IMG/VR virus record: IMGVR_UViG_3300045391_002681
Span: 1-64,000 of that record
Direction: 5' to 3' (one strand)
DNA length: 64,000 bases
Source: a virus
How positions within the stretch are numbered: the stretch's first letter is position 1; the number at the start of each line of letters is the position of its first letter. The position numbers and the translations under genes are program-made. This document shows positions 2,090 through 55,887 of this stretch, in pieces. A model generated the notes under the pieces. It saw nothing but the letters and a program-made list of their open reading frames with translations. It made no database searches and was not told the origin of the DNA.

Positions 2090-2092
2090 GCC

Positions 2093-4345: not shown

Positions 4346-4374
4346 AGGCCGATCCGCTTGACTCCCCGCCGCCA

Positions 4375-4389: not shown

Positions 4390-4393
4390 CGGC

Positions 4394-5189: not shown

Positions 5190-5207
5190 GCTGAAGCGGC
5201 TTGGCGG

Positions 5208-5462
5208 TCAGCCCCGCCGCTCGGCCATGACCGCCCTCAGCGCCTCCTTGCACCCCTTGACCGGCCGCCAGCGGGCGTAGGCGCCCTTGTCCGGCAGCTC
5301 CTCCAGGTAGCCGCCCGATTGGAGCACGGTCGCGCTCTTGAGGCGCTCGAACTCGCGTTCCCGGTCGGCCGCGCTGATCTTGCCCGCGATCTTCACCTTG
5401 AGCACGCCATCGCGGCAGGCTTCCTGTAGCACCCGCACATCGAAGTCTGAGAGGCGCAGCAT
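5208..5462 (-). CDS. Hypothetical protein (winged-helix-like)
   Basis: Plausible ORF starting from an AT-rich divergent spacer. Confidence 0.5.
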   Translation of the reverse strand: MLRLSDFDVRVLQEACRDGVLKVKIAGKISAADREREFERLKSATVLQSGGYLEELPDKGAYARWRPVKGCKEALRAVMAERRG

Positions 5463-6519
5463 GGGTGGTATATAGGGGCATGACAGACGCCGAACTCCTC
5501 GACGCGATCTACTGGAAGGTGATGGCGTGGCTGAAACCGGTTCCAGGGGCTCCAGCAGACGAGACGCTGTTGCAGATCATCGAGCTATTCGAGGCCAACG
5601 GGCGGGAGTTCGTGAAGGTGGACTACCCGGCGAACGACTAGAACGCAGCCGCCTTGCATGCGGCCAGCTAAGCGCCGGTCTCCGCCTCCAGGTCCCCGCC
5701 CTCCTCCATGTCGGGCTCTTCCTCGAGGTCGGGGTCGCCGAGCACTACGTCGACCTTGTCGATGCCGCGTTGGATGGCGTTCTGGAGGTCGCGGAGTTCC
5801 TGGGCCAGATCCAATGGCTCTCCGAGTTGTTGCCTAACCTTCAGCCGCGGCGGCGGTTCGGCGTCAAGGAATCCCAGGGCCTGGGCCAGTGACGCCTGCA
5901 ACGGTCCCTCCGGCCGCCAGACCTCTTTCAAGTGCCGGATATGCAAGTCTTCTGTCATGTCAACGCCCCCACAGCGCAGCCATATGGCTACACGCTACAG
6001 GCGAGCGGTCAACAACCTTTGTTATTTCGGCAGGCGCTCTGCGACCACCTCCAACTGAACGGCGAGACGCCCGACCCACGCGGCCGAAACCCGGTTCGCC
6101 TCAATGGCAGCGAGCGCCTGGTGCAGTGGCCAGCCGAAGTCAAACGGCCAGTTCTCGATCGGTCCGGCCCCGACTTCCTTCACCCAGTGCATGGCCTTCA
6201 GCACCTTCTCGCGCTGGGGCGGCGGGAGGGAGACGAACCACACCAGCACCATCCACTCTAGAGCAGCCAGTTCTGGACTAGGGGGCGGCAACGCGGACTC
6301 GGACAAACGCTCACTCCATGACGCAAACCCACGTCCGCGGGCCTCAGCCGTAGATGAACGGGACCCACATCCCCGGTTCATTCACAGCCAAGGTCGATGA
6401 ACGCGACCTGACAAAAGGCGGTGAACTTGGCTTAACCCACTGTTTAATTTCAAGGTAGCTTGTAAACTGTCACAGCCGTCGTAGACGGGAGGCTCGGCCG
6501 TGCGCTACCGCTTCCGCTC

Positions 6520-12583: not shown

Positions 12584-12811
12584 ATGTCCGCGCAAGATAC
12601 CGTGAAATCACAGAAACGCCGAGGACCGCCAGCCACCGGCAAGGGCGAGCCGATCTTGGTTCGCGTCCAGCCCGAGCTCCTTGCCGCCGTTGATACCTGG
12701 ATCGCCGAGCGCCGCGCCAGCATCGCCGATCCTCAAGCTCTCAGCCGCCCGGAGGCCCTTCGTCAATTGGCGGCGGAGGCGCTGAAGACGATGGGACTGC
12801 TCAAGCCCTAA
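12584..12811 (+). CDS. Ribbon-helix-helix regulator
   Basis: GPPATGKGEPILVRV...SRPEALRQL. Confidence 0.8.
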   Translation: MSAQDTVKSQKRRGPPATGKGEPILVRVQPELLAAVDTWIAERRASIADPQALSRPEALRQLAAEALKTMGLLKP

Positions 12812-12875: not shown

Positions 12876-13901
12876 ATGGGGCGCTTGCCATCACTACAGA
12901 TCGCGAGATTTCTCGCCGCGCTCAGCGTCGTTTGGCTTCACGCGACTTCATTATTGCCAAAGGAGACGCCTCCAGCGTGGGCCGGCGCCGGGGTCGATTT
13001 GTTCTTCGTCCTATCTGGCTTTGTGATCAGCCACGCCCGCGACCATAAGCCGGGCACGTTCCTGCGCGACAGGGTTATTCGAATATATCCGATATATTGG
13101 CTGTGGGCGGTGCCGTTCGTTGCCTTGTCGGTATTCAAGGCGCCAATTCATTGGACTGACGCTATTTCGACAGTCACACTTTGGCCCGCGTTCGCACAAT
13201 TGACATTGCCCATACCAGACCCAGCGTGGAGCCTGTGCTTTGAGGTTGTTTTCTATCTAGCGGTGTGGTCAACCATCCGCGGTATTCAGGCATGGATTAT
13301 AGTACTCGTTTGGGCGGCCATGATGCTCGCGAATTTCGCGATTGCTTCGCCCATATTGCGCTTTCTTGGTTGCCCAATGATCTCGGAATTTCTGCTTGGT
13401 GTCCTCGCATATCGGATAGGCCGGAAGGGACCAGCGTGGGGCTGCTGCGCCATTGGCGCGGGATGCCTTGTGCTCGCGATCACAAAGGACCGGATGGCAT
13501 CCCCGCTCGACGTCTTCACTCCGGCCCTCGCGGCTATTCGCAGCCTGGAGTGGGGAGCAGCTTCATTCCTGATTATTTGCGGGTTCGCCCAGCTGGATTT
13601 GACCGGTCCCATTTGGAAGCCGATCGCCTTCGCCGGGGACGCCTCGTTCTCAATCTACCTCGGACACGAACTAGTGCTCATGACACTCCACTCCTGGACG
13701 TCGTTTCCCATGGGACGACTAGGCGCGACCTGCGTTGCTGTCGCGGTGGGGATCGCGTCCTATTGGCTTGTTGAGCGGCCGCTGTTGACAGTTTTGCGGC
13801 GAATGGTCGTAGGACGCGGCGCAGCCATTGCCCATAGTGGCGCTCGTTTGCGCTCTGGTGCTAGCGGAACAGCCTTAGCAGATCAGGCCGCCCACCCGTA
13901 A
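12876..13901 (+). CDS. Acyltransferase-3 (OafA-like) surface polysaccharide O-acyltransferase, lysogenic conversion moron
   Basis: RFLAALSVVWLH, GVDLFFVLSGF, RIYPIYW, WSLCFEVVFY, GDASFSIYL; multiple TM helices. Confidence 0.92.
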   Translation: MGRLPSLQIARFLAALSVVWLHATSLLPKETPPAWAGAGVDLFFVLSGFVISHARDHKPGTFLRDRVIRIYPIYWLWAVPFVALSVFKAPIHWTDAISTVTLWPAFAQLTLPIPDPAWSLCFEVVFYLAVWSTIRGIQAWIIVLVWAAMMLANFAIASPILRFLGCPMISEFLLGVLAYRIGRKGPAWGCCAIGAGCLVLAITKDRMASPLDVFTPALAAIRSLEWGAASFLIICGFAQLDLTGPIWKPIAFAGDASFSIYLGHELVLMTLHSWTSFPMGRLGATCVAVAVGIASYWLVERPLLTVLRRMVVGRGAAIAHSGARLRSGASGTALADQAAHP

Positions 13902-15916: not shown

Positions 15917-16339
15917 CTATTCCAGTTGGACGGTCGCCTGCCAGGTCGAGGACCCGGAGGTGATGTCGATGGTGAAGATGTCGTCCGCCGCGATAGGCAG
16001 AGGCGATGAGGTCAGCGCGGTGAAGGTGGAGACAGTCCCCGCGGCGGTCCCATGCGACACCGTGGGGTCCGCCGAGAAGATGTCCGTTCCGTTCTGCTTG
16101 ATGCGGAACGTCAAATCGACCGTCCCGTCTGACGCCTTGGTCACCACTTTGCATTTGGTGACGGACCCGGATCCGGGCGCGATGACCAAAGGACAGACGC
16201 TGCTACCGGTCGCGCCGGTGTTGAGGATGAAGCCGAGCACCCTCGGAGTGTCGTTCGTCGTGAGCGCGAGCGTGTCGCCCGACGGCAACTCGGCAATAAG
16301 GCCGCCGCTGTTGATTACCAGAGGATAGCGCGCGGTCAT
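15917..16339 (-). CDS. Minor tail protein
   Basis: Beta-rich, coupled to the central tail protein. Confidence 0.65.
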   Translation of the reverse strand: MTARYPLVINSGGLIAELPSGDTLALTTNDTPRVLGFILNTGATGSSVCPLVIAPGSGSVTKCKVVTKASDGTVDLTFRIKQNGTDIFSADPTVSHGTAAGTVSTFTALTSSPLPIAADDIFTIDITSGSSTWQATVQLE

Positions 16340-19335
16340 CGACGGATCACCGGATCGCCGGGCTCAAAGGTCATGGCGGTGCTTGAATGGGCGAAGCCGA
16401 CGCGCTGGACGATCTGGCCGGTCCCGGTCGGAGCGGTCGCCGTCACCTGCCCGGCAGTCGCGGCGAGGTATTGTTCGCCTGCTGTAAGCCCAGAGAGCCC
16501 GGTCACGTCGCCGCTGGCATAGACCGTCGCCGTGCCGCCCGACGAAACGCTGGTGACAACATAGCCGTGCGCTTCCTTGCCGGAGGTCGAGGCGTTGGCG
16601 TTTCTGACCTTCGCCGCGCCGCTGCTGTTCCAGATGTTGACCAGGGCGGGCGCCGTGATCGCCTCGGATGCGGTCAGCGTCATCACTCCCGCAACTGGGG
16701 CCGCGACAGTAACCGTCGTCGTGCTTGACCACGGACTGACCTGCGCGCCGGCGATGTAGGCGACCTGAACATCAACCGAGCCCGTCGCCGGGATCAGGCC
16801 GGTCAGGATAGTCAGAGGCGAGCCGGTGGCCGTGATGGAAGATCCGCCGTCCGTCCACACGCTGTCGGCCGACAGCTTCCACTGCACCTTCCATGTGATG
16901 TTGCCGCCAGGATCGGCGACGACGATGGACAGGCGCGCTCCCTGAACCCCGCCGCCGGAGTTCGGATAGACCGGCGTGACGCTGGTGATCGTCGGCGCGG
17001 CCAGCGGCTGAAGCGGTGAGCCGGAGGGCGGCGCGAGGGGCGGGAGGGTGTAGCCAGCTCCCGCCGTGGCGACAGAGCCGAACATCGCCACCTCGATGTC
17101 CGCTGTGACAGCCTGGGCCGTCAGGGCGAGCGGCAGGCCGTCTTCAGGCGTGTTGTCGATGTGCGAGGTGTAGGTCGTACCGAAATGGCCCTCCACGTCG
17201 ATAGAATTGATCCGCACACCGGGCATGGTGGCGATCACGGCTTCGGCGTCGGCCAGATATGTTGGCCACAGACTGGAGGTCTGGGTGGTATCGGTGATGC
17301 CGCCCCAAACCATGATGATGCGTTTGGTCAAGATCGACGGATCGGTTCCGTCGAAGAAGGTCTTGGCCTCGCTCAGGCATGAAGCGGCGTCGAAGCTGAA
17401 GTCGGCGTCCATGGTGAGCGCGCTGACAAAGGTGATGATGTCGGCGATATCCGACGCTGTCGCGGCCGGCTTAACGATACTGGACACGGCATGATCGAAA
17501 GCGACCACAGCGATGTCCAGGCCTGATCCATAGGTGGCCCCGATCAGCGAAAGGGCGTTGATGACGCCGTTTTTGACCCTCGTGACCGCAGAGGCGTCGC
17601 CGTACTTGCTCACGTCCAGAATGAAGCAGACCGCCTGATTGGCGCCAGAGCCATATCCGCCCACGACCACGCACGGGAAGCTCGCCGTCATCGTGGAAAT
17701 GTCGATGGAGACCTTCCCAGTTACCTCAAGGATGCCGTTGGCGGCAGACAGGGACGGATCGAGGACATCGAGCCTGATATACCGCTCGCCCATGACCGCG
17801 AGGCCCGCGAGGTTGCAGGTGAGGGTCAAGCGAAGGGGCTGCGTCTGGCGCGCCAGCATGGCCCGCGCGACGCTGATCGCCTGCGGCGCGGACGGGACCC
17901 ATTGCAGATAGAGCTCGTTGTTGCGGACGTCGCCCCGAGCAGCGATGTCGATGTCGTCCTGCACATAGCCGGCCTCGGCCTTGTTGAAGGCGCTGGCCGG
18001 ATCGGTGTAGCTGACGATGTACTGATTGGTGGCCTGCTCGTCGGGCAGGTAGTTCTGTAGCTGGTAGCCGACGATATGGCGGTCCGAGAGCGTGACCGTC
18101 GGCGCATAGACCGTGTTCGTTCGCACCACCAAGGCGCCGTCGCCACGTTGGCCGAGCCAGCCGTCGAAGGTCTGCAGGATCGACTTGACCACATCGCCGG
18201 GCGGCGTGTCGTGCTTGTAGGTCCCGGCGCAGCGGTAGCGGGCGGATTGGCCCGAGGCGTTCCAGTAGGCCAGTTCACCGGCCGTGTGACTGTTGGTCAG
18301 GGTTCCGGTGAGATCGACTTCGCCCGCCAGGCCAAGACCAGAGACGGTGACGTTCTGCCCATCGGCCAGTTGAATGACCACGCCGGCCGTCAGGCCCGTG
18401 GTGTCGGCGAGGAAGATCTTGTTGTCGCCGGCAGCGGCCGCGTCCAGCAACGTGGCATGCATCCCCGAGGTGGAGACTAGGCCGTCGCATTCGTCAGCGG
18501 CGGCCGTCCAGAAATCGATCGCAGGAAGGATGAACCGGCCGTAATCCAGCCCCATCCCGCCAGAGGCGTCGGTCAGGTAGGCCAGCAGGCACAGGACCGG
18601 GTTGTCGCTGAACTTGTAGGTCGAAGGATCGCCCTGCGTCTGGCTCACGTCGCGCGGGTCGAAGATCAGCTGCGCGTCGATCACCGCCGATGGCTGCGGA
18701 AGGCCGTTGGGGAAGTCGCCGGCCTGGTCCTCGCGCTTGGCCTGCGTGCAGGTCAGCAGCATCGACGTGACGCCGTCGCCCCTGTGGTCCGAGGTCCACA
18801 CCGGCACGTCAGACGAGATGGCATAGGCCGTCTCGGTGGAGAGCCCGAGACGGCTGTCGATCTTGACCAGGTTCGGCTCGTTGGAGCCGCCGCCGCCGTA
18901 CTTGCCTGGCGCGCCCGGCGCCCACCAGAAGTTGCCCGAGGCGGTCTTCGCCATCAGGTCGTCGTTCAGGTAGAAGCCGACGATGGCGCTGCTCTGGCCG
19001 TCCAGCAGGGCCAGCACGTCGTATGAGATGTTGGTGTGCGTGGTTCCGGTGACGTAGAGGGCATAGGCGCCCGCGACCCGGACCCGGCCAAAGGCGGATT
19101 GCCTGACCGGCATCGGCTGCTTCAGCGGGAACTGCAGCGCCTGGGGATCGGGAGCCTTGGGCGCGAACGCCGCGCCGATGGCCGCCGAAATGCCGGTCGT
19201 CACGCCGATGGTGGCGGCTGTGTAGCCGATCGTCGACGCCGCATCGATCGCGGCCGAACTGATGGTGAACAGACCGACCGTGTTGGCTGCCGCAGCGGAG
19301 GCCGCGGTGGCGATGGCGGTAACGGCTCCCGACAT
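16336..19335 (-). CDS. Central tail tip protein with vWA-like insert and decoration-like C-terminal domain
   Basis: AFGRVRVAG, DPRD...SDNPVLC, RYRCAG motifs; CFILDVS vWA strand. Confidence 0.85.
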   Translation of the reverse strand: MSGAVTAIATAASAAAANTVGLFTISSAAIDAASTIGYTAATIGVTTGISAAIGAAFAPKAPDPQALQFPLKQPMPVRQSAFGRVRVAGAYALYVTGTTHTNISYDVLALLDGQSSAIVGFYLNDDLMAKTASGNFWWAPGAPGKYGGGGSNEPNLVKIDSRLGLSTETAYAISSDVPVWTSDHRGDGVTSMLLTCTQAKREDQAGDFPNGLPQPSAVIDAQLIFDPRDVSQTQGDPSTYKFSDNPVLCLLAYLTDASGGMGLDYGRFILPAIDFWTAAADECDGLVSTSGMHATLLDAAAAGDNKIFLADTTGLTAGVVIQLADGQNVTVSGLGLAGEVDLTGTLTNSHTAGELAYWNASGQSARYRCAGTYKHDTPPGDVVKSILQTFDGWLGQRGDGALVVRTNTVYAPTVTLSDRHIVGYQLQNYLPDEQATNQYIVSYTDPASAFNKAEAGYVQDDIDIAARGDVRNNELYLQWVPSAPQAISVARAMLARQTQPLRLTLTCNLAGLAVMGERYIRLDVLDPSLSAANGILEVTGKVSIDISTMTASFPCVVVGGYGSGANQAVCFILDVSKYGDASAVTRVKNGVINALSLIGATYGSGLDIAVVAFDHAVSSIVKPAATASDIADIITFVSALTMDADFSFDAASCLSEAKTFFDGTDPSILTKRIIMVWGGITDTTQTSSLWPTYLADAEAVIATMPGVRINSIDVEGHFGTTYTSHIDNTPEDGLPLALTAQAVTADIEVAMFGSVATAGAGYTLPPLAPPSGSPLQPLAAPTITSVTPVYPNSGGGVQGARLSIVVADPGGNITWKVQWKLSADSVWTDGGSSITATGSPLTILTGLIPATGSVDVQVAYIAGAQVSPWSSTTTVTVAAPVAGVMTLTASEAITAPALVNIWNSSGAAKVRNANASTSGKEAHGYVVTSVSSGGTATVYASGDVTGLSGLTAGEQYLAATAGQVTATAPTGTGQIVQRVGFAHSSTAMTFEPGDPVIRR

Positions 19336-19337: not shown

Positions 19338-19808
19338 CTACTTCCCGGTCACGACGATGGTGTTTGAGTGGCCCGGCTGGCGCGACATGAGCTTGGCAGC
19401 CTCGCTGGTGAACTCGTCCTCGGCCTCTCCGACACTCTTTGCTGAGGTGGCAAAGATCATCGTCAGGTACGTGTCCGCGTGGGCGAAGAAAGCCTGCTTT
19501 CGGTGCGCGCTGGCCGGCAGGACGGCATAGCCAGTCAGTCGCTCGGCGCTGTCTCCGCGAGACACGGTGCAGTCGCCCGATACGATCAGGACCGTGGCCA
19601 CTTCGACGAGCGCGCCCGTGATGGCGACGCCAGCAGGGATCATGATCGTGCGGGCGTAGAGGCCGGCGTGCAGGACGTGTTGGGTGGCGATCTCGGCCTG
19701 GGGCAGTTGGGCCGCGCGTATCTCCGCTTCACTGATTGCGGCGATGCCCTCGGGGCTGGAAGCCAAAGCCGAAATCAGCAGGTACGGCGTGAGCATCACG
19801 TCCTGCAT
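19338..19808 (-). CDS. Cupin-fold hypothetical protein
   Basis: HVLHAGLYARTIMIPAG...G motif. Confidence 0.65.
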   Translation of the reverse strand: MQDVMLTPYLLISALASSPEGIAAISEAEIRAAQLPQAEIATQHVLHAGLYARTIMIPAGVAITGALVEVATVLIVSGDCTVSRGDSAERLTGYAVLPASAHRKQAFFAHADTYLTMIFATSAKSVGEAEDEFTSEAAKLMSRQPGHSNTIVVTGK

Positions 19809-20251
19809 GGTGCTCCTTTCGCGAACACGCTGTTGCTGTGGCGGTAGCCGAGACGGGGCAGGATCCGCTCAAGGGCGCTGCCGGCCGGGGCCGTGATCAG
19901 CAGGCCGGTCCCATGCAGAGCGGCTAGGGCTTCGGCCGCGCGGATCAGCGCGCGCCCGGCCCCGGTGCGGCGGCGGTCAGCCCTGACGAACACACTCTCG
20001 ACGACCGAGATCGGGCCGCCGTAGTGCGGAAGACTGGAGCGCAGCACGCTGACGAAGCCGACCAGCCGGCCGTCCTCGCGCGCGGCGATGATGTTGAAAA
20101 GCCCCGCCTGCTCCAGGGCCGCGTACTGCTCCCATTGTGGTTGCGCGGCGGGCAGTTCAGGCGATTTCGCCTCGGCCGCGTATTCGGCGACCAGGGCCGC
20201 GATGTCCGGATCGCCCATGAGGTCGGCGACGGTTGCGACAGCGATGTCCAT
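19796..20251 (-). CDS. GNAT acetyltransferase
   Basis: VFVRADRRRTGAGRALI acetyl-CoA motif A. Confidence 0.88.
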   Translation of the reverse strand: MDIAVATVADLMGDPDIAALVAEYAAEAKSPELPAAQPQWEQYAALEQAGLFNIIAAREDGRLVGFVSVLRSSLPHYGGPISVVESVFVRADRRRTGAGRALIRAAEALAALHGTGLLITAPAGSALERILPRLGYRHSNSVFAKGAPCRT

Positions 20252-20289
20252 GCCGCAGCCTCCGCGTTCGGAAAATGTTGAAATGCGAA

Positions 20290-20309
20290 GGGCGGCCCGA
20301 AGACCGCCC
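20290..20309 (-). terminator. Intrinsic terminator closing the RAMP/array operon
   Basis: GGGCGGTC-TTCG-GGCCGCCC-TTCGCATTT. Confidence 0.85.
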
Positions 20310-20312
20310 CCT

Positions 20313-20454
20313 TAGACCAGCGCTGGCCAGCCCCGCCACGAGCCGCCCAACCACGCCTTGCCTGCCGAGCCGCGCCCAGCCAAGCCCTGCAATGCCTCGC
20401 CTGCCTTGACTAGCCCAGCGGTGCCAAGCCTAGCCTCGCGTTGCGGTGCCTGCC
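20313..20454 (-). ncRNA. Putative guide-RNA array: three units of GGCA-(GGY NN)n, n = 9, 7, 10
   Basis: Strict 5-nt periodicity; third base is a pyrimidine in 26/26 pentamers and 17/26 triplets are exact GGY; non-coding, between a stop codon and a terminator. Confidence 0.8.
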
Positions 20455-20464
20455 CTACCCCGAT

Positions 20465-20947
20465 TTAGCCCTTAAGGATGGGCCGAGTTTCGTCGATGGC
20501 CGAGAATATCCGAGCCAACTCCGACAACTCCGCATGGCGGGCTCGCCACGCCTCCAACTCGGTGAAAGCCCGGCGCAGAACCTGCTTGCGCAGTTCCTCG
20601 CTGGACATCGCCGTCGCCGTGGAAACGTAGCCGCGCGCGGTGTCGGTTTCCACGTTCACGAATGCCCTGACCGTCTTCTGCTCCACGTTGGATCGGGAGA
20701 TATCGACGGTCAGGGACCGCACAAGGTCTCTGGCCTGATCACAGCGGAAGGCCTCTGCCGCCGCGTGATCGTCCCATTCGAAGTGGTTGTGCAGGACCGA
20801 GTCCTCGGCCCGGGCCGCGTCAACGATCTGCTGCGGCTCCAGCGGGTCGTTGCGGCCCTTCTGGAGATTGGCGATGGCTTCGCCCGCCTTCTGCGCGTCG
20901 ATGCCGATGCGGGAGCCTTGGCGCCAGCCGTAGATGACCCTAGCCAT
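20465..20947 (-). CDS. Conserved phage protein, partner of the RAMP-like gene
   Basis: LHNHFEWDDHAAAEAFRCDQAR motif; 8-nt overlap with the upstream gene. Confidence 0.75.
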   Translation of the reverse strand: MARVIYGWRQGSRIGIDAQKAGEAIANLQKGRNDPLEPQQIVDAARAEDSVLHNHFEWDDHAAAEAFRCDQARDLVRSLTVDISRSNVEQKTVRAFVNVETDTARGYVSTATAMSSEELRKQVLRRAFTELEAWRARHAELSELARIFSAIDETRPILKG

Positions 20948-21590
20948 GCAGGGCCTCGATTTCTCCGGCAGCGGCGACGCGGAACCGGCCGAACAGGCCG
21001 TCGCGTTCCGGGCGCCACTCGCCAACACCGACTGCGAAGCCGGCGAGGTTGAACAGGGTGACGACCTGCTCCGCTGAGATGACGGCGGTGTTGATCTGCA
21101 CCTTGACCTTGACGCCCCACGGATCGAACTGGCCGCGGTAGCGCAGGTCCGCCACACCCATGCCGACGCGGGTCACGTCCTCGCGCATGGCCGGCGGTGG
21201 CCCGATGATCTCGGCCATCTCGTCGACGACGTGAAACGCCTGCCGGGCCGCGACCTTGGTCACCGAGCCAGTGGACGTGCAGGCCGTGACGGCGGCCGAC
21301 TTGAAGGCGACGCCGGGGAAACCGAACTTGGCCTTGTCGATGTCATCCGCGGTCGGCCTCTCGGGCTTGGCGGAGAGCCAGTAGAGGCTGCCGACGAAGT
21401 CGTCGAACGGCACCTTGGCCTCGCGGCCCTTGGTCGCCTTCTTCTGTTGCTTATCGGCCATGGCCCGGAGCGCCTTTTCGCTCCAGGCATGGACGATCAG
21501 CGGCGTTGTCCCGATCAGCGGGATTTCCACGGTCTCAAGCGCCAGCGGAGGCAACTCGATCGCCGTGCTTGTTTTCGCTACAGCGGCCAT
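20940..21590 (-). CDS. Stand-alone Cas7/RAMP-like protein
   Basis: LIGTTPLIVH (beta1), FPGVAFKSAA (cf. IPGSSLKG), C-terminal Gly-rich loop GVGEWRPERDGLFGRF. Confidence 0.75.
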   Translation of the reverse strand: MAAVAKTSTAIELPPLALETVEIPLIGTTPLIVHAWSEKALRAMADKQQKKATKGREAKVPFDDFVGSLYWLSAKPERPTADDIDKAKFGFPGVAFKSAAVTACTSTGSVTKVAARQAFHVVDEMAEIIGPPPAMREDVTRVGMGVADLRYRGQFDPWGVKVKVQINTAVISAEQVVTLFNLAGFAVGVGEWRPERDGLFGRFRVAAAGEIEALHG

Positions 21591-21796
21591 CAGGCGCCCT
21601 CGTACATGTAGGAGCCCTCATCTTCGCAGACCGCCTCTTGATCGAAGCTGTCTTCGAAGTCCGGATCACCATCCATGCGGTCTAGCGCGGCGATGAGCCG
21701 CTCGACAGCCGCTTCGATGCGGCGCCGCAGTTGGTCCCGGTCATTGGACGGGATGGTGACGCGCACGCGCGGCGTCTTTAGAATGGCGACAGCCAT
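21590..21796 (-). CDS. Small acidic protein
   Basis: GGAG RBS; TGATG coupling to the RAMP-like gene. Confidence 0.65.
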   Translation of the reverse strand: MAVAILKTPRVRVTIPSNDRDQLRRRIEAAVERLIAALDRMDGDPDFEDSFDQEAVCEDEGSYMYEGA

Positions 21797-21827
21797 GACC
21801 TGATCTCCATAGGATCGGTTGCGGTTA

Positions 21828-21862
21828 GGGCCGGCTCGGTGTTGCAAGCACCTTGTCGGCCC
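21828..21862 (-). ncRNA. Conserved leader hairpin, copy 2
   Basis: GGGCCGACAA-GGTG-CTTGCAA-CACC-GAGCCGGCCC. Confidence 0.55.
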
Positions 21863-21890
21863 GACACGTTTATGATACCACGCTATCACG

Positions 21891-22088
21891 ATGTCAATTG
21901 CTGATAGCAAGAAATCAGGAAGGCCGGCGACCGGCACCGGAACCCCGGTGATGGTTAGGCTGTCCGATGCCCAGCTTGAGGCCCTTGATCGTTTCCGCTC
22001 TAGCGCGCCCGGAATACCTTCCAGGCCCGAGGCGCTTCGGCGATTGATGGACTTGGCATTGCAGGCTCGATCTTCGGACGAGGCCTGA
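21891..22088 (+). CDS. Ribbon-helix-helix regulator (paralogue of 12584-12811)
   Basis: GRPATGTGTPVMVRL...SRPEALRRL. Confidence 0.8.
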   Translation: MSIADSKKSGRPATGTGTPVMVRLSDAQLEALDRFRSSAPGIPSRPEALRRLMDLALQARSSDEA

Positions 22089-22183
22089 CCGAAAGGTCGA
22101 AACGGAGCGGGCGATGCACGGTAGGGCTCGGCTGAGCCCGGTTGAAGACGATGGGCCTACTCAAGGGCTAACGGCGACCTTAG

Positions 22184-22723
22184 TTACTTGGCAGCCTTCG
22201 GCGGTTGGCTAGCGGCCCATGCCTCCAGTTGAGCTATTTCATCAGCCGTAATGGCCCCGGTGAGAAGACACTTATCACCCATTGTCGTGGTGACGCGAAG
22301 CGGCACGCGTCCCTGCGCCTTGATGGCAGACAATGTCTCGTCGGGAACTACGAACTGCGCGAGCGCATCGTTGTGACAGCCGGCCGCCCCATAGCAATAG
22401 GGGTCTGCCAAACGCTCCCCGGTTTTGGTCAACGCGAGACCGCCCAACAAATCAACGGCTGTGATCTCTCCCGGCGAGCGCAGGCCATCGGCCTCGATGC
22501 TCATGCCCACGGACAGTTTTCCGCTTGCGCGCGGGATCAGGCCATAAACTGCGTAGCTGGCGCCATCTCCGCAGTAGCTCTGTCCATTTTGCGACCTCAG
22601 TGGGCCCCGAAACTCGGCCTGGACGTAGGCCTTATACGGATCGTCCGTAATATTCATCTGTGCCGACGCCAGGCATGGCGATGCCCAGACCGCCGCGCTC
22701 AAACCAACCCACACCAGCCGCAT
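22184..22723 (-). CDS. Secreted hypothetical moron protein
   Basis: Signal peptide, paired cysteines, atypical codon use. Confidence 0.6.
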   Translation of the reverse strand: MRLVWVGLSAAVWASPCLASAQMNITDDPYKAYVQAEFRGPLRSQNGQSYCGDGASYAVYGLIPRASGKLSVGMSIEADGLRSPGEITAVDLLGGLALTKTGERLADPYCYGAAGCHNDALAQFVVPDETLSAIKAQGRVPLRVTTTMGDKCLLTGAITADEIAQLEAWAASQPPKAAK

Positions 22724-22785
22724 ATTCGCACCCCCTCAAATAGGAGAAGCTTTGCGCTGAACGCGTCTGATGTACAGGCCGCAGG

Positions 22786-23373
22786 TCAGCCCGTTCCCCA
22801 CACTTTTGAGGTGCCCCCAGTCAACTTCGCCACCTGATCGAACATGGCGTCGTCGGCGGACCGGCGGCGCTGGTCGATGTCTGTGAAGAACACGAAGTTG
22901 GGTCGGCGCCGGCTGGTGAACACATTGCCCACCGATAGCTTCAGCGCGCGGGTCTGGCCGTCGGGATTGCGCTGAACGGTGAGGGAGTCTGCCGTGCCAC
23001 TCCCCAGCCAGAAGACGGGGTCGATCAGTTGCCAGTCGGCGTCGAACAGGACCAGGCCGAAGTCGACCGCTACGCCCCGGATGTCCGCCGCGCTGCCCTG
23101 CGCGATGGCTGCGGCCTCGCCGGTGACTGCCACCCCAGAAACGCCGAGATCGAACCGATCCGCCTCGCCGTTCAGGGCGGCCGAGAGCTGCGGATAGTCG
23201 GTCAGCAGGCCCATGGACAGATATTCAGCGCCGTCGGTGTCCTCCGCCCCGCCAGCCGGGATGGCGATGGGTCGCACCTGGCCAGCCCAGATGCGGATGA
23301 CGGTGGGCGTGGCGATGCGGACCAGAGCGCCCACGCGCTTGGCCTTGGCCAGTTGGTCAACGCTGTAGGTCAC
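22786..23373 (-). CDS. Tail tip protein
   Basis: Follows Dit; TDIDQRRRSADD.MFDQV...KVW C-terminus. Confidence 0.7.
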   Translation of the reverse strand: MTYSVDQLAKAKRVGALVRIATPTVIRIWAGQVRPIAIPAGGAEDTDGAEYLSMGLLTDYPQLSAALNGEADRFDLGVSGVAVTGEAAAIAQGSAADIRGVAVDFGLVLFDADWQLIDPVFWLGSGTADSLTVQRNPDGQTRALKLSVGNVFTSRRRPNFVFFTDIDQRRRSADDAMFDQVAKLTGGTSKVWGTG

Positions 23374-24077
23374 GGCGCGCCCGGGTATTCGATGAGGCGG
23401 GCCGCAGCCTTGCCGAAGCGGAACTGCTGCACGGTCTCGGAGATGTCGCCATCGACGCGCGCCACGAAGCGCGGGCTCTCGAAATTGAGAGCCGCGCCGG
23501 ACGCGACCGCCTCACGCAGGGGCGGCCTGAACTGGACCTGGGTCGAGACGGCAGATCCGACCGTCCCGCCGGACACGACCCGGCTGACACGATAGAGCCG
23601 CCAGGACATGGTCGCGTGCAGGATGCTGAACAATTCGCCGCCCATGAGGGCCAATGGCGCAGTCAGGTTGAAGGTGCAGGACGTCGCGCTGAGCGCCATG
23701 TCGGCCGTGGTCGTGGCCGTGACCTCGGTGTTGCTCCAGGCCGTGACGTCGTCGACCCAGGTCGTCGTTCCGAACGTGTCCGCGCCGGTATACTTCGGGT
23801 TCACCGGCTGGTGCAGACGGTCGGCCACCGGGACAATGAGCGATTGAGCCCCGCCGTCTGCCGCCGCGACGAACCGGCGATACAGCAGCCGGGCCTCGCG
23901 GGTCATCAGGGCGATGTCGCCGAAATCCCCGACCCAGCGGCCGCCGCCGCTCGCATCGGCGAACTGCTGCTCGCCAGACAGGGACACGCCGCCAGAAATC
24001 GCCTGGCCGACTAGGCGTAGCTGTAGCGAACCGGCGCCCAGAGCGACGGCTGGATAGACCAGGCTGCCGGTCGTCAC
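23370..24077 (-). CDS. Distal tail protein (Dit-like)
   Basis: Follows the tape measure gene; FRPPLREAV...LNFESP motif. Confidence 0.7.
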   Translation of the reverse strand: MTTGSLVYPAVALGAGSLQLRLVGQAISGGVSLSGEQQFADASGGGRWVGDFGDIALMTREARLLYRRFVAAADGGAQSLIVPVADRLHQPVNPKYTGADTFGTTTWVDDVTAWSNTEVTATTTADMALSATSCTFNLTAPLALMGGELFSILHATMSWRLYRVSRVVSGGTVGSAVSTQVQFRPPLREAVASGAALNFESPRFVARVDGDISETVQQFRFGKAAARLIEYPGAP

Positions 24078-26674
24078 TGGTTGAGGCCCCCGAGGTAGCC
24101 GGCGCGGTGGACGTCCTGCACCGCCAGCGAGCGGCCGACCTGCGCAGCCTGCCGCGCGTGGGCCGCGGAGATGCTGTTCATCTGGTCAAGCAAGTCCTGG
24201 GTCATGACCGGGCTGTTGAGTACGAACGTGGGTCCGGCGATCATGGCTGGCGCTGTCTGCGGCGCCTTCATCGCGTTGATCGCATCCAGGGTCTGGAACG
24301 TCGGCGTCACGCTCGCCCCGCGCGGCAGGTTGACCAGCTCCGGGCCCTTCTCGCCCACCAGGGCCATGCCGCCGGGAGCGAAGTCGGTGCCTGAGGCGAA
24401 CCCCGGGATGAAGTGCAGCAGCGCCGCGAAGCCTTGTGCCATGCCCGGCGCGGCTTCCCTTTCCAGCGTCTGGGTCAGGATTTGCTGGACGAGGTTGAGG
24501 AACGTGTTCTTCAGCACGTCGCCGAGGTTCTTGGCGTGCAGGGCGGCGTCGACCAGGCCCGAGTTGAGCGCTTGGATGGCCTGGACGCCGTCTTCCTGGA
24601 AGGCGGTGTTCAGGTCCTGGATTTTGTTGATGTACTGCTGAAGCGGCCCGGCGTTGGCCTTCTCAAAACTGGCCGTCTGCAGCGGCTGTTCTGCCTTGAC
24701 GAAGTTGACGTTCGTCTGCGCCGCGTCGACCGCATTCTGCGCGTGCTTGATCGCGTCCTTGTCGTCTGGAGAGGTCGCTTTGACCGCCTCCAGATGACTT
24801 TTGGCTTCGGCCAGTTTCGAGGCGGCCAATTCGCTGTCCGCCTTCTGCTGCGCGACCAGCGCGGCGCGCTCCAGGTCTACGCGGTCCTTGGCGACCGTCG
24901 CCAGACTGGCGCGAAGCGTCAGCGTCGCCGCTTCGTTCTGGTATGCCGTAAGGCGCTGCTGGTAGCTGTCCTGCTCAAGCTGGGCGGCCAGGGTCATCTG
25001 TGCCAGCTGATGCTCACGTTCGGCGAGCAGCAGGTCGGTCGATTGGGTTAGACGGACTTCGGTTTCCGTCTGGTTGAGGACGGCGATGGTCTTGTCGTGG
25101 TTGGCCTGGATGTTCTTGGCCTCGGCGTCGGCCGCCGCGGTGTGGAGCTTGGCCAGTTCAGCGAGCTTGGCGTTGTCGCTGGTCTGCAGCTCGGTCTTCT
25201 GCTTCTCGATCTCGGCGATCTGCTTGTCGGCCCCGAGGTCGATCGCCTTCCTCTGGTTCTGGTAGGCCTCGTCCAGCGAGCCGGACAGCTTCTGATAGGC
25301 CTCGGCCAGCTTCTGCTGAGCCCCGATCAGCGTGGCCTGCGCGCCCTCCAGCTTCGCTCCGGAGTCGTCCTTGGGGAGGGCCTTGACCACCTCCGGCGCC
25401 AGGGGGATGCCGCCGCCCGTGCCGTCGCTGGCGGGCTTGCGGTCGGCCGCGATCTTCGCGCCGAGCGCCTTGGTCATGGCGTCGTAGTCGGCCTTGGCGG
25501 TGTTGTAGTCAGCGACCGTGAGGGCCGAGTTCCCGGCGGAGGCGCCGGTTTCATCGAAGTTCGGCGTTTCCTTGGTGGTTTCCGGCGGCGCATAGGCGAT
25601 GTTCCCGCGGGCGTCGAACTTGACGCCCTGGCGGCTCAGCTCGCGCCGGCCCTGGAGCAGTTGCAGGGCCTTGTCGGTCTGATTGGTCCGCAACACGTCT
25701 TCGGTCATCAGATCGTAGTGCGGCTGGCCCGAGAGCTTGCCGCCGTTGATCATGTTCTGCAGCCAGAGGTTGGCGTCCTTCGCCATGCCGGCCATCATGT
25801 CGGCGATGGTCTTCACGACCGGGGCGAGCGTGATGAACGCCTCTTTCAGCTGGACCGAGATGATGTCCTTGGTCGCGGCCAATTCCTTGTTGAGGTCGGC
25901 GGCCTTCTTGATGCTGCCGGCGTCGATCACCGCGCCGCTGGCCTTGGCCTCCTTCATCTTCTCGCCGATCTCGCCGAGCACCGGAACGATGTCCTTGGGG
26001 ATGCCGAGCTTTTCCGCCAGCATGTTCCGCTGGCCGGTGTTCCTTATCTTCTCCAGGCGCTCGCCGATTTCAGACAGCGCACTGACCGGGTCCTTGATGT
26101 CCCGCGCGCTCTCCTTGGTGATGCCTAGCGCGTCGAACACCGGGATCAGGCGCTTGTCGCCGATGTTGGCGGCGTACTTGGCGATGGAGACCTGTAGTTC
26201 CTCGGCCGCCTGCTTGGCGGTGTCGAAGTTCACGCCGGACGCGACGGACGCATAGTTCAGTTCCTGGACCTTGTCCGTGGTCGTGCCCAAGACCTCGGCC
26301 AAATGCTGGACCTGTTCGGCGTATTCCATCGCCTTGTGGGCTTCCTCGAGGGCGATGCCGAAGGCGGCGATTCCGGCCGCGGCGCCGATACCGAGCGGCC
26401 CCAACGGCTCCAGGGCGGACCCGAAGATGCGCAGCCGCGCCGAGCCCTCTTCAAGGACCGCGAGCTTGGAGCTGTCGAAGACCTTGTCGAGCGCCTTGCC
26501 GACGTTGATCGAGCCGAGGCCCTTCTCCAGTCCCTCGGCCGCCTTCTTGCCGCGGCGCTCCAGTTCCGGCCCCGCGTCCGACAGGCGCTTGTTCAGCGCG
26601 TCGATGGCCTTCAGCGCCTTGGAGGTGTCGGCCGAGACCGTAAGGAGAAGTGCCTGGGCGTCTGATGTGGCCAT
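24074..26674 (-). CDS. Tape measure protein
   Basis: Long Ala-rich coiled coil; C-terminal PGFASGT...ALVGEKGPELV motif. Confidence 0.9.
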   Translation of the reverse strand: MATSDAQALLLTVSADTSKALKAIDALNKRLSDAGPELERRGKKAAEGLEKGLGSINVGKALDKVFDSSKLAVLEEGSARLRIFGSALEPLGPLGIGAAAGIAAFGIALEEAHKAMEYAEQVQHLAEVLGTTTDKVQELNYASVASGVNFDTAKQAAEELQVSIAKYAANIGDKRLIPVFDALGITKESARDIKDPVSALSEIGERLEKIRNTGQRNMLAEKLGIPKDIVPVLGEIGEKMKEAKASGAVIDAGSIKKAADLNKELAATKDIISVQLKEAFITLAPVVKTIADMMAGMAKDANLWLQNMINGGKLSGQPHYDLMTEDVLRTNQTDKALQLLQGRRELSRQGVKFDARGNIAYAPPETTKETPNFDETGASAGNSALTVADYNTAKADYDAMTKALGAKIAADRKPASDGTGGGIPLAPEVVKALPKDDSGAKLEGAQATLIGAQQKLAEAYQKLSGSLDEAYQNQRKAIDLGADKQIAEIEKQKTELQTSDNAKLAELAKLHTAAADAEAKNIQANHDKTIAVLNQTETEVRLTQSTDLLLAEREHQLAQMTLAAQLEQDSYQQRLTAYQNEAATLTLRASLATVAKDRVDLERAALVAQQKADSELAASKLAEAKSHLEAVKATSPDDKDAIKHAQNAVDAAQTNVNFVKAEQPLQTASFEKANAGPLQQYINKIQDLNTAFQEDGVQAIQALNSGLVDAALHAKNLGDVLKNTFLNLVQQILTQTLEREAAPGMAQGFAALLHFIPGFASGTDFAPGGMALVGEKGPELVNLPRGASVTPTFQTLDAINAMKAPQTAPAMIAGPTFVLNSPVMTQDLLDQMNSISAAHARQAAQVGRSLAVQDVHRAGYLGGLNQ

Positions 26675-28425: not shown

Positions 28426-28875
28426 TTAGACCGGGTCGCCCGCGGTCCACGGCCACGCACCGGAGTTCTCCAGGGTGATGGAGCGCTGCACGAGATTGGC
28501 GTCCTGCCGGAGCTGAACCGACTCGCCGAGGCTGGTCAGCAGGGCCGGACCTGAGCGGTAGCCAACGCCGGACTTGCGGTAGCGGATGTTCCGGGAGAGC
28601 CCGCTGTCCATCCAGCCGTTCCAGGTGGCCTCGTCCTCGGAAGCGGCGATGCCGCTCAAGGTGATCTTGCCGCCGATGCTGGAGATGCCGGCGATGTCCC
28701 AGGCCGGCGCCTCGGGGTTGTTGCAGTCGGGCACGATGGCGGTTGAGGTCTGGGCCGTCAGGTCAACGGCCTTCTGCGAAAAGCCGCACATCAGGGCGTT
28801 GTAAGTGCCCGAGCCGGGCGAGGACTCGACCTCGAGGATGATGCCCCCAAAGGAGCTGGTGGTAGGAAGCGCCAT
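28426..28875 (-). CDS. Major tail tube protein
   Basis: CGFSQK...VPDCNNPEAPAW motif of alphaproteobacterial tail tube proteins. Confidence 0.8.
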   Translation of the reverse strand: MALPTTSSFGGIILEVESSPGSGTYNALMCGFSQKAVDLTAQTSTAIVPDCNNPEAPAWDIAGISSIGGKITLSGIAASEDEATWNGWMDSGLSRNIRYRKSGVGYRSGPALLTSLGESVQLRQDANLVQRSITLENSGAWPWTAGDPV

Positions 28876-34078: not shown

Positions 34079-35398
34079 TTACGGCGAGACACCAGCCACG
34101 AGCGGGCCGGCGTTCACAGTGTCGCCGAGGTCGTGGTTGTTGATGTCGAAGCGCTCGGTGCCCAGCAGGCCGATCTGGTCGTTCTCGAAGTAGCGGTGAT
34201 CGGAGCGCTTGATGGTCACGCCGCGACGTTCCCCGAGGGCCGAGGACTTGCTGAGGTCGCCGAACAGGAACTGCGCCTTGCCGGAGCCAGGCGCCGCGAT
34301 CGGCAGCTTCTGGGCGATCACGACCGGGAAGCCCAGCAGGCGCGGGTTCATCGGATCGGTCGCCAGGGTGGCGATGGTGTTGCCGCCAGCCTTGGCGAGG
34401 ACGGTTCCGGCCGCCGAGTAGAACATCTGCTGGCTCATGTACCACTTGGCGCCAGGCAGGGCGTATTGCGGCAGCTTGCCCATGGTGCCGGTGAAGTCCG
34501 CCACAGTGAGCGCCGTCAGGGTCGCGGACGAGGTCTGGTATTGGCCGGCGGTGTGGTTGCCGTCCGCGAAGATGGTGGAGACGCCGCGGATGCCGCCGTA
34601 CGAGGAAGTGCCGTCGCCGTTGAAGCCAGCGTCGTCTTCCTTGGCCGCGAAGGCGTAGGCGATTTCACCCACCAGCCAGTCGGCGATGGACACCACGGCG
34701 TCCTCGGCGATCTCGTTGGACATGCGGGTGAGCGCGCCGAGCTTCTTGGCGGTCAGGTTCACCGCGTCCCAGGAAGCCTGGGACTCGCTCACCGCCTGGT
34801 TTTCGCCGGTGAAGAATGCGGTCAGACCGCCGGTGCGGCGCGGCCAGTTCAGGGTGTCGGAGCCCATCGGGACGACCTGGCACTCGCGGCGGAACACGCC
34901 GAACTGCTCGCGCAGGACGATGATGTTGGCCAGCAGCTCTTCCGGAACCAGGAAGCCGCCGGCGCTGTCCACGCCCTCGCCCTGGGCCTTGGTCACGGGG
35001 ATGCCGCGCGACTTGCACCAGTCGATTGCCTCGGCGTTGCCGAAGATCGTGGCCTTGAACCACATGCCGGCGGTGTAGGCCTGGTCGACGGCGCGGACGG
35101 TCTGGCCGGCCACTTCGCGGTCCTTGAAGTGCTTCAGGCTGCCATAGACCTTATGGGCGCTGGGCGGCGCCGAGGGCGTCAGGCGGTCCTGGCCAGGAAC
35201 GGGGGTGGCGAGGCTGCGGGCGATCGCCTGGGCGTCCTCCAGCTGCTTGATGCGCTTCTGCAGTTCGGGGATCGTGCCGTCCTTCAGGGCGTCATAGACG
35301 TCCTGCTTGAAGCCGTCGGCTTCGGACTTGCCGGCCATCGCTTCGAGTTCGTCGACAGCCTTGCTCAGCTGCTGACGCAGTTCATGGATCTTCGCCAT
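34079..35398 (-). CDS. Major capsid protein (HK97 fold) with delta domain
   Basis: GGFLVPEE, LTAKKLG, NGDG, LLGFPV, FGD, ERFD. Confidence 0.95.
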   Translation of the reverse strand: MAKIHELRQQLSKAVDELEAMAGKSEADGFKQDVYDALKDGTIPELQKRIKQLEDAQAIARSLATPVPGQDRLTPSAPPSAHKVYGSLKHFKDREVAGQTVRAVDQAYTAGMWFKATIFGNAEAIDWCKSRGIPVTKAQGEGVDSAGGFLVPEELLANIIVLREQFGVFRRECQVVPMGSDTLNWPRRTGGLTAFFTGENQAVSESQASWDAVNLTAKKLGALTRMSNEIAEDAVVSIADWLVGEIAYAFAAKEDDAGFNGDGTSSYGGIRGVSTIFADGNHTAGQYQTSSATLTALTVADFTGTMGKLPQYALPGAKWYMSQQMFYSAAGTVLAKAGGNTIATLATDPMNPRLLGFPVVIAQKLPIAAPGSGKAQFLFGDLSKSSALGERRGVTIKRSDHRYFENDQIGLLGTERFDINNHDLGDTVNAGPLVAGVSP

Positions 35399-55883: not shown

Positions 55884-55887
55884 AAAC

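What the first reader, a model, noticed from the sequence alone, without database searches (positions are those of the whole stretch)
20280..21796. Candidate CRISPR-independent RNA-guided system: solo Cas7/RAMP-like gene + partner + 5-nt periodic guide array
Seen: one tightly coupled minus-strand operon made of an acidic 68-aa ORF, a 216-aa protein, a 160-aa protein, a non-coding periodic array starting 11 nt after the last stop, and a terminator. No cas1/2/3/5/6 and no classical CRISPR array were recognised in the window. Knowledge: the 216-aa protein has the three hallmarks of Cas7-group RAMPs (TPLxxH beta1, PGxxxK helix, C-terminal Gly-rich loop), and Cas7 polymerises along RNA with a fixed nucleotide footprint. 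Inference: each subunit grips one GGY triplet and displays the variable NN, giving a programmable complex that a prophage could use to silence competing phages. From memory only (unverified), this matches the recently reported phage VIPR architecture (GGY/NN RNAs, gapped DNA targets), so it may be a new member rather than a wholly new class.
Basis: partly seen in the sequence, partly recalled or inferred. Interest (0 to 1): 0.97.

Follow-up and report, generated by a model that had tools for sequence, protein, structure and literature searches.

The report
Prophage VIPR RNA-guided silencing cassette
A temperate phage of a high-GC (probably alphaproteobacterial) host carries a VIPR system, the CRISPR-related phage RNA-guided DNA silencer first described in 2026 preprints. 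It is a well-supported new example of a known kind, and I could not find what its three guides target.

Summary
The 216-aa protein (21590-20940, minus strand) is a homologue of the solved SUSP1 Vipr protein. That is the only significant PDB sequence hit (profile E 2.4e-12). The residues that grip the two guanines align and are conserved, and the predicted fold is Cas7/Csm3-like (Z 10.8).

The stretch 20459-20323 is the strongest period-5 signal in the 98-kb contig. It reads as GGYNN units forming three head-to-tail guides of 10, 8 and 8 units. Each guide ends in GGCAG, whose last G is the first G of the next guide. This fits the "staggered array" mentioned in the VIPR preprint. A GC hairpin closes the array.

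The 160-aa protein is a conserved partner: it sits next to vipr in 17 of 19 related loci. It is not homologous to SUSP1 Vap1 and has no known family. The 68-aa ORF is not conserved.

In 18 of 19 evaluable related loci the strongest period-5 signal lies next to vipr on the same strand.

I found no natural target for the three guides. Expression, processing and repression are inferred, not shown.

The scan has already logged many VIPR loci on other DNA. Verdict: new member of a known kind, not type II; the type number cannot be assigned here.

The parts
20940..21590 (-). vipr: a 216-aa stand-alone RAMP (Cas7-like) protein, predicted to polymerise on the GGYNN RNA
   Evidence: PDB sequence search hits only 'SUSP1 Vipr protein' 36pp_D (E 2.4e-4 with the single sequence; E 2.4e-12 with the 40-sequence profile). 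hhalign against the SUSP1 gene product gives 98.3% probability. tblastn to phiSUSP1 gives 25.8% identity over 90% of the query. The AF2 model has pLDDT 93.3; its top fold matches are Csm3/Cmr4/Cas7, Z up to 10.8. It belongs to phrog_4652, function unknown.
20465..20947 (-). vap-like accessory gene: a 160-aa protein with the conserved motif H..FEWDD
   Evidence: Found next to vipr in 17 of 19 related loci and homologous to Gordonia phage Ecliptus gp20 (E 1e-24). No homology to SUSP1 Vap1 (hhalign probability 0.1%). No Pfam, NCBIfam, PDB or PADLOC hit; phrog_15946. The AF2 model (pLDDT 89) has an N-terminal alpha/beta domain with weak winged-helix-like matches (Z 5.2-5.7, below significance) and a C-terminal helical hairpin.
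20450..20459 (-). two leader units, GGTAG GGCAG, ahead of the first full guide
   Evidence: Direct reading of the sequence in GGYNN register.
20401..20450 (-). candidate vrRNA A: 10 GGYNN units, with NN = AC AA GA TA TT AC TG TA AA AG
   Evidence: Register and coordinates come (the skip-3 self hit at 20450). It ends in GGCAG, whose last G starts guide B.
20362..20401 (-). candidate vrRNA B: 8 units, with NN = GA AT AG TT TG GC TC AG
   Evidence: self hit at 20401. It ends in GGCAG, sharing its last G with guide C.
20323..20362 (-). candidate vrRNA C: 8 units, more degenerate, ending in GCCAG
   Evidence: self hit at 20362.
20288..20311 (-). terminal GC-rich hairpin (10 bp, UUCG loop): a terminator and/or 3' cap of the array transcript
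   Evidence: RNA fold. Similar hairpins close the arrays of L001, L002, L003, L006, L008, L009, L010 and L012. It was not called by the terminator scan because the U tract is weak.
21590..21796 (-). acidic 68-aa ORF, translationally coupled to vipr; lineage-specific and of unknown role
   Evidence: The ORF is present. tblastn finds no homologue in any of the 20 related loci, and there is no family hit.
21891..22088 (+). divergent 65-aa repressor-like gene, probably the cassette's regulator
   Evidence: phrog_4738 'transcriptional repressor', E 3e-6. Homologues lie upstream and divergent from vipr in L001, L002, L009 and L012. An inverted repeat GCTATCA/TGATAGC (21908-21902 and 21888-21882) flanks a minus-strand TTGACA at 21897-21892; this is my direct reading, and neither the promoter nor the operator was called by the scan.

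Best explanation
This is a VIPR (Viral Interference Programmable Repeat) cassette carried as an accessory insert in the tail-gene module of a temperate siphovirus-like phage.

Proposed mechanism:
1. The operon vipr-vap-array is transcribed from its own promoter, probably controlled by the divergent small repressor, and ends at the terminal hairpin.
2. The array transcript yields three guide RNAs of 10, 8 and 8 GGYNN units, delimited at the GGCA|G junctions.
3. Vipr protomers bind one per unit. They sequester each GGY through H34, R152, E191, W192 and R193, and present the NN dinucleotides.
4. The filament recognises double-stranded DNA whose sequence reads (xNN)n, with one skipped base per unit.
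5. It silences transcription there, most likely in a rival phage or mobile element.
6. The 160-aa partner assists, possibly as a DNA-binding factor.

Shown here: homology of Vipr to the solved SUSP1 protein, conservation of the GG-binding residues, the RAMP fold, the array and its register, and conserved linkage of vipr, the partner gene and the array across distant relatives.

Inferred from the published SUSP1 work: RNA binding, the 1-nt-skip reading and repression.

Not shown: expression, processing sites, targets, and the role of the partner protein.
For: - Only significant PDB sequence match is SUSP1 Vipr (E 2.4e-4, profile E 2.4e-12, hhalign 98.3%).
- The SUSP1 residues H17, R138, D177, W178 and R179, which read G1 and G2 and hold Y3 (paper 720927), align to H34, R152, E191, W192 and R193. 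In 40 diverse homologues R152 and R193 are invariant, H34 is kept in 36 of 40, position 191 is E or D in 38 of 40, and W192 is kept in 30 of 40.
- The AF2 model (pLDDT 93.3) matches Csm3, Cmr4, type VII Cas7 and gRAMP first.
- The array is the extreme period-5 feature of the window and contig.
- In 18 of 19 evaluable related loci the strongest period-5 signal lies next to vipr on the same strand.
- In 28 cleanly parsed guides from relatives, G1 is 97%, G2 77%, Y3 93%, and N4 and N5 carry about 0.1 bit each.
- Inter-delimiter segments have a mode of 50 nt, i.e. 10 units.
- The partner gene is co-conserved.
- The context is a phage: terminase, portal, capsid, tape measure, tail fibre and integrase.
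- In a related locus one guide matches a rival prophage's tail sheath gene at 19 of 20 positions, wobble-aligned. This supports phage-against-phage use in this clade.
Against: - No natural target was found for any of the three guides. Searched: the 98-kb contig (best 13/20), IMG/VR and metagenome contigs, 401 Caulobacteraceae-family genomes, and 1.23 Mb of related phages.
- 7 of 26 units depart from GGY, and two guides have only 8 units, below the 9-16 reported for type II.
- There is no pseudoknot tail like that of SUSP1 vrRNAs.
- No RNA data exist for this sequence.
- The partner protein is unrelated to the only Vap tested experimentally.
Confidence: 0.9

Rival explanations
1. A decaying or idle VIPR remnant. 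The genes are intact, but the short, partly degenerate array no longer makes working guides, so the cassette is a passenger.
For: 7 of 26 units are degenerate and guide C is the most eroded. Guides B and C have only 8 units. No target was found in any search.
Against: Both ORFs are full length, with all key residues kept. Degenerate units (GTYNN, CGCNN) are equally common in relatives' arrays, and the preprint reports frequent internal degeneracy. The register and the GGCAG delimiters are intact. Failure to find targets is expected when the host's mobile elements are not sampled.
Confidence: 0.06
2. A working VIPR whose guides regulate the host or the phage's own lysis-lysogeny circuitry rather than rival elements.
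For: The cassette sits beside a repressor-like gene. The targets are unknown. The third VIPR paper shows that guides can be directed at host sites, there as decoys.
Against: No site in the 98-kb contig reaches 80% NN match (best 13/20). The published natural targets, and the one strong match I found in this clade, are other phages or mobile elements. The host genome is not available, so host targets are untested.
Confidence: 0.1
3. Not RNA-guided. The period-5 tract is a DNA element (bent DNA or a protein-binding array), and the RAMP-like protein has another RNA-binding or structural role in the tail module.
For: The cassette lies among tail genes. No transcript evidence exists (see Tried and rejected).
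Against: The protein shows sequence homology to a protein solved in complex with exactly this kind of RNA, and the base-contacting residues are conserved. The array is always on the coding strand directly downstream, whichever gene order is used. The cassette occurs in unrelated phage backbones: siphovirus-like here, a sheath-bearing prophage in L019, and actinophages.
Confidence: 0.02

Closest known systems
VIPR type II of Escherichia phage SUSP1 (Vipr + Vap1 + tailed vrRNAs; bioRxiv 10.64898/2026.04.26.720920, 10.64898/2026.04.26.720927, 10.64898/2026.10.15.759431; PDB 36pp)
   Same: A homologous Vipr protein of about 200 aa with the same GG-binding residues. A two-gene core followed by GGYNN repeat RNA genes on the same strand. 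Phage-borne, with no cas genes and no CRISPR array.
   Different: Only about 26% identity. The partner protein is unrelated to Vap1. The guides are concatenated with a 1-nt overlap at GGCAG and lack individual pseudoknot tails; a single hairpin ends the whole array. Guides are 8-10 units rather than the 9-16 reported. The host is a high-GC bacterium and the phage is temperate.
VIPR systems with 'staggered' vrRNA arrays (fig. S18 legend of 10.64898/2026.04.26.720920)
   Same: The legend states that individual vrRNAs derive from positions overlapping by 1 nt, so that the end of one marks the start of the next. That is the geometry seen here and in 13 related arrays.
   Different: The figure and data S4 are not held, so I cannot check whether the delimiter GGCAG, the vap family or the Vipr clade are the same as in the published example. 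The type number is unassigned.
Class 1 CRISPR backbone subunits Cas7/Csm3/Cmr4
   Same: RRM core, G-loop and thumb. The best structural matches to the model are Csm3 9g9a_D (Z 10.8, rmsd 3.7, 150 aligned) and the type III-B Cmr-beta chain 6s6b_I (Z 10.8).
   Different: No sequence match to any Cas model. No other cas genes and no CRISPR repeats. The footprint is 5 nt with three bases sequestered, rather than 6 nt with one base flipped.

Membership tests
VIPR system | Vipr protein: a small stand-alone RAMP homologous to the described Vipr family (RRM core, G-loop, thumb) | tested here: met
   sequence homology to SUSP1 Vipr; Cas7/Csm3-like fold, Z 10.8.
VIPR system | Residues that read the GGY motif (SUSP1 H17, R138, D177, W178, R179) | tested here: met
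   They align to H34, R152, E191, W192 and R193. In 40 homologues R152 and R193 are invariant, and position 191 is E or D in 38 of 40.
VIPR system | Adjacent tandem YNNGG/GGYNN repeats (the preprint's own criterion is at least 4 units) | tested here: met
   26 units in three guides plus 2 leader units. It is the strongest period-5 signal in the contig.
VIPR system | GGY conserved while NN is hypervariable across related arrays | tested here: met
   In 28 guides from relatives, G1 is 97%, G2 77% and Y3 93%; N4 and N5 carry about 0.1 bit; all 16 dinucleotides are used. Arrays of loci with 84% identical Vipr differ throughout in NN.
VIPR system | A vipr-accessory (vap) gene in the locus | tested here: met
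   The 160-aa gene is co-conserved in 17 of 19 loci. It is not Vap1. Which of vap2-6 it is, if any, cannot be told.
VIPR system | Viral or proviral context, with no cas genes or CRISPR array | tested here: met
   A phage structural module and an integrase. No CRISPR-like repeats. No PADLOC/Cas hit for the cassette proteins. A TnpB gene at 285-1367 is unrelated to the cassette.
VIPR system | vrRNAs are expressed and co-purify with Vipr | not testable with these tools
   Needs small-RNA sequencing and a pull-down.
VIPR system | Guides match natural DNA targets by the 1-nt-skip rule (at least 80% NN match) | tested here: inconclusive
   No credible target for the window's guides. In the same clade, a guide of L010 matches a tail sheath gene in L019 at 19/20, wobble-aligned.
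VIPR type II (SUSP1 / P. fulva clade) | Vap1 accessory protein | tested here: not met
   hhalign of the partner profile against the SUSP1 gene downstream of vipr gives probability 0.1%.
VIPR type II (SUSP1 / P. fulva clade) | Each vrRNA carries its own conserved 3' tail (a pseudoknot in SUSP1) | tested here: not met
   The guides abut with a shared G. Only one hairpin follows the whole array.
CRISPR-Cas class 1 (type I/III/IV/VII) | Cas7 encoded with other cas genes and a repeat-spacer array | tested here: not met
   No repeat-spacer array in 98 kb. The cassette proteins and their neighbours match no Cas model.

The most novel reading that the evidence does not exclude
The clade seen here may be a mechanistically distinct VIPR variant. 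It combines Vipr, the 'H..FEWDD' partner protein, and tail-less guides concatenated through a reserved GGCAG unit with one terminal hairpin. In this reading, guide length is set by a processing or measuring step at the GGCA|G junction, carried out by the partner protein or by Vipr itself, rather than by a structured tail on each guide. The dinucleotide AG is almost excluded from internal units (4 of 264), as expected if GGCAG is a reserved punctuation mark.
Probability: 0.25. Interest if true: 0.6.

Novelty: new member of a known kind. Interest (0 to 1): 0.4.

Why it matters
VIPR is a months-old class, known experimentally only from the type II systems of SUSP1 and Pseudomonas fulva.

This locus adds a clean example from a temperate phage of a high-GC host. 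It belongs to a large clade: 5791 proteins at 90% clustering, and 3368 clusters at 50%. That clade spans alphaproteobacterial prophages, actinophages, Clostridia and spirochaetes.

The clade pairs Vipr with an uncharacterised partner family. It writes its guides as a continuous, punctuated array.

It gives concrete material for three experiments:
- testing how tail-less guides are cut and measured;
- finding out what the second protein does;
- checking whether the 1-nt-skip code holds outside type II.

It does not change the picture of what VIPR is.

Tried and rejected
1. Target searches for the window's guides under the published 1-nt-skip rule.
- Own 98-kb contig: best 13/20.
- Guide A, exact, in IMG/VR and in metagenome contigs: almost all hits are one 41-43% GC sequence with stop codons in both wobble-aligned frames, plus a few low-GC singletons. 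I read these as compositional chance, because the guide's NN are 70% A/T.
- Guides B and C, exact, in IMG/VR: 12 and 35 hits. My rough estimate is that this is near the number expected by chance for 16 specified bases. The hits do not converge on one gene.
- Three 16-base sub-patterns of guide A: every hit lies in a contig of 20-50% GC.
- 401 genomes of the family of L003's genome, up to 2 mismatches: 0 hits, against 2 hits for the reversed control pattern.
- 1.23 Mb around capsid and tape-measure relatives of this phage: nothing above unit-shuffled controls. A 13/16 site in distant capsid genes is within the control range.

2. Complex prediction of Vipr with the partner protein gave no verdict (score 0.00). 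It says nothing either way.

3. The look-up of sequencing runs listed no run and no RNA holder.

5. Rfam found no family, and so no hammerhead ribozyme, in 19500-22800.

6. The partner protein's fold found nothing by Foldseek against the PDB. VIA-align gave only weak winged-helix-like rows (Z 5.2-5.7), so 'DNA-binding' stays a guess. The ESM Atlas gave only viral 'hypothetical protein' clusters.

7. The genome search 'family' could not be centred on the window, because it is a virus record. I used L003's genome as the centre instead.

8. Type assignment (I to VII) was not possible. The preprint's figures and data files are not held.

9. I rejected the idea that the array is coding. Period 5 is not a multiple of 3, and the ORFs crossing it are short.
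Full report
**What is there**

On the minus strand the window carries three translationally coupled ORFs:
- 68 aa at 21796-21590;
- 216 aa at 21590-20940;
- 160 aa at 20947-20465.

Five nucleotides after the last stop a G-rich tract with a 5-nt rhythm begins. It is followed by a 10-bp UUCG hairpin at 20311-20288. A GNAT acetyltransferase gene (20251-19796) lies downstream. A 65-aa repressor-like gene (21891-22088, plus strand, phrog_4738) lies upstream and divergent.

**Is the periodicity real?**

Yes, on three measures:
- The tract gives the highest period-5 Fourier power of all 70-nt frames in the 64-kb window. None of 2000 dinucleotide-preserving shuffles reaches it.
- It has the best fixed-phase YNNGG score on either strand.
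- A parser that tolerates 4- and 6-nt units scores it 48.6, against at most 14 anywhere else in the 98-kb contig.

Read as GGYNN, it resolves into two leader units (GGTAG GGCAG) and three runs:
- A: 20450-20401, 10 units;
- B: 20401-20362, 8 units;
- C: 20362-20323, 8 units.

Each run ends in GGCAG (GCCAG in C). The last G of that unit is the first G of the next run. This is why the fixed-phase signal slips by one base twice.

**The 216-aa protein**

It has no Pfam, NCBIfam or PADLOC family, only phrog_4652 of unknown function.

- Against all PDB chain sequences its only hit is 'SUSP1 Vipr protein' 36pp_D (E 2.4e-4).
- A profile of 40 diverse homologues raises this to E 2.4e-12. Every other hit has an E-value of 0.5 or higher.
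- hhalign against the SUSP1 gene product gives 98.3% probability.
- tblastn aligns 90% of the protein to phiSUSP1 at 25.8% identity.

The cryo-EM preprint names the residues that read the motif: H17, D177, R138 and W178 for the two guanines, and R179 among those holding the pyrimidine. In the alignments these correspond to H34, E191, R152, W192 and R193. Across 40 homologues:
- R152 and R193 are invariant;
- H34 is kept in 36;
- position 191 is E or D in 38;
- W192 is kept in 30.

An AlphaFold2 model (pLDDT 93.3) finds Cas7-family backbone subunits first. These are Csm3, Cmr4/Cmr6, type VII Cas7 and gRAMP domains, with Z up to 10.8.

**Do relatives carry arrays?**

The family is large: 5791 proteins at 90% clustering and 3368 clusters at 50% identity.

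I fetched 20 genomic loci with 31-84% identity. In 18 of the 19 that extend past the gene, the strongest period-5 signal of the whole locus lies on the same strand next to vipr.

All these arrays are punctuated by the same GGCAG unit.
- Of 55 inter-delimiter segments, 32 are exact multiples of 5, and the modal length is 50 nt.
- In 28 cleanly parsed guides, G1 is 97% G, G2 is 77% G (20% T), and position 3 is 93% pyrimidine.
- Positions 4 and 5 carry about 0.1 bit each, and all 16 dinucleotides occur.
- AG is nearly absent inside guides (4 of 264), as expected if GGCAG is reserved as punctuation.

The preprint mentions 'staggered arrays with overlapping vrRNAs', in which vrRNAs derive from positions overlapping by 1 nt and the end of one marks the start of the next. 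The geometry here fits that description.

Most related arrays end in a single GC-rich tetraloop hairpin, several with U tracts. No ribozyme or other Rfam family is present.

**The 160-aa protein**

It is a genuine partner. Homologues sit beside vipr in 17 of 19 loci. The order is vipr-partner-array in the alphaproteobacterial and several other loci, and vipr-array-partner in two Clostridia loci and in Gordonia phage Ecliptus.

It shows no similarity to SUSP1 Vap1 (hhalign probability 0.1%) or to any curated family or solved structure.

The model (pLDDT 89) has an N-terminal alpha/beta domain. Its best matches are winged-helix proteins at Z 5.2-5.7, below the level that can be trusted. It also has a C-terminal helical hairpin. 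A DNA-binding role, as the preprint predicts for several vap families, is plausible but untested.

**Other nearby genes**

- The 68-aa ORF has no homologue in any related locus. I do not count it as part of the system.
- The divergent repressor-like gene recurs upstream of vipr in four loci.
- An inverted repeat, GCTATCA/TGATAGC, brackets a minus-strand TTGACA at 21897-21892. This is my reading of the sequence; the promoter scan did not call it.

**Context**

The contig is a virus record of 98,411 bases at 65% GC.

The cassette sits inside the tail module of a siphovirus-like temperate phage. In order along the module:
- terminase 39444-41318, then portal, protease and major capsid 34079-35398;
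- major tail 28426-28875 and tape measure 24074-26674;
- distal tail proteins 23370-24077 and 22786-23373;
- the cassette;
- tail fibre 16336-19335.

An integrase lies at 2630-4114 and a DnaB helicase at 47068-48513.

The same cassette occurs in other backbones, between the tail chaperone and tape measure genes in Gordonia phage Ecliptus and in a prophage with a tail sheath (L019). It therefore behaves as a mobile accessory module.

**Targets**

I applied the published rule: replace each GGY by one free base and search both strands. No credible target turned up for the window's guides.

- Nothing in the contig exceeds 13/20. This agrees with the preprint's finding of no self-targeting.
- Exact hits to guide A in IMG/VR and in metagenomes are essentially one 41-43% GC sequence with stops in both wobble frames.
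- Guides B and C have only 16 specified bases. By my rough estimate their hit counts are near chance level.
- Sub-patterns of guide A hit only low-GC contigs.
- 401 genomes of a candidate host family gave nothing at 2 mismatches or fewer.
- 1.23 Mb of related phage DNA gave nothing beyond shuffled controls.

Within the clade there is one strong match. A guide of L010 matches the tail sheath gene of the VIPR-bearing prophage in L019 at 19 of 20 positions, with every skipped base at a codon's third position. By my estimate about 0.001 such hits would be expected by chance over that whole search.

A weaker case also exists. Another L010 guide best matches rival vipr genes at 18/22, against 14/22 in its own.

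Both fit the phage-against-phage use described in the papers.

**Verdict**

This is a VIPR system.

- Membership features met: homologous Vipr, GG-reading residues, GGYNN array, conserved GGY with variable NN, accessory gene, viral context, and absence of cas genes and CRISPR arrays.
- Not testable here: expression and RNP formation.
- Inconclusive: natural targets.
- It is not type II, because the accessory protein is different and there are no per-guide tails.
- The type number cannot be assigned without the preprint's data files.

Earlier notes of this scan record many VIPR loci on other DNA, so the kind has been found repeatedly.

Noticed in passing
L010:5240-5690 (array) and L019:982-1011: A guide of the Chelativorans-MAG locus L010 (NN = GC TA AC GC AA TT AA CG CT AG) matches the tail sheath gene (phrog_205) of the VIPR-bearing prophage in L019 at 19 of 20 positions. 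Every skipped base falls at a third codon position. This is a likely real phage-against-phage target in this clade.
   Followed up: partly
L010 guide 3 versus vipr genes at L008:4138, L019:4138, L016:4117: A second L010 guide best matches the lysine-rich helix codons of rival vipr genes at 18/22, wobble-aligned, but its own vipr at only 14/22. This is borderline statistically. It resembles the vipr-targeting guides reported for SUSP1-family phages.
   Followed up: partly
window 1-5600 versus contig 63058-67858; window 53350-56113 versus contig 95242-98216: The 98-kb contig contains diverged direct repeats. This suggests two related elements in tandem, or an assembly joining two related phages. 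The second element shows no vipr, and no guide match above 65%.
   Followed up: partly
window 285-1367 (+): A TnpB/IS605 OrfB gene (Cas12f1-like TNB domain, E 6e-21) next to the integrase. It is a second, unrelated RNA-guided nuclease family in the same window.
   Followed up: no
window 12599-12787 (+) and 21891-22088 (+): The small repressor-like gene beside the cassette has a 41% identical paralogue about 9 kb away in the same phage.
   Followed up: no
window 20311-20288; L003, L009, L010 array ends: The terminal hairpin (GGGCGGTC-UUCG-GGCCGCCC) is nearly the same sequence in loci whose Vipr proteins are only 47-69% identical. This hints that it may be more than a generic terminator.
   Followed up: partly
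window 12876-13901 (+) and 19796-20251 (-): An Acyl_transf_3 gene and a GNAT acetyltransferase flank the tail-fibre region. They look like lysogenic-conversion-type accessory genes.
   Followed up: no
window 22184-22723 (-): A 179-aa ORF with a signal-peptide-like N terminus and no family hit sits between the tail genes and the cassette's regulator.
   Followed up: no
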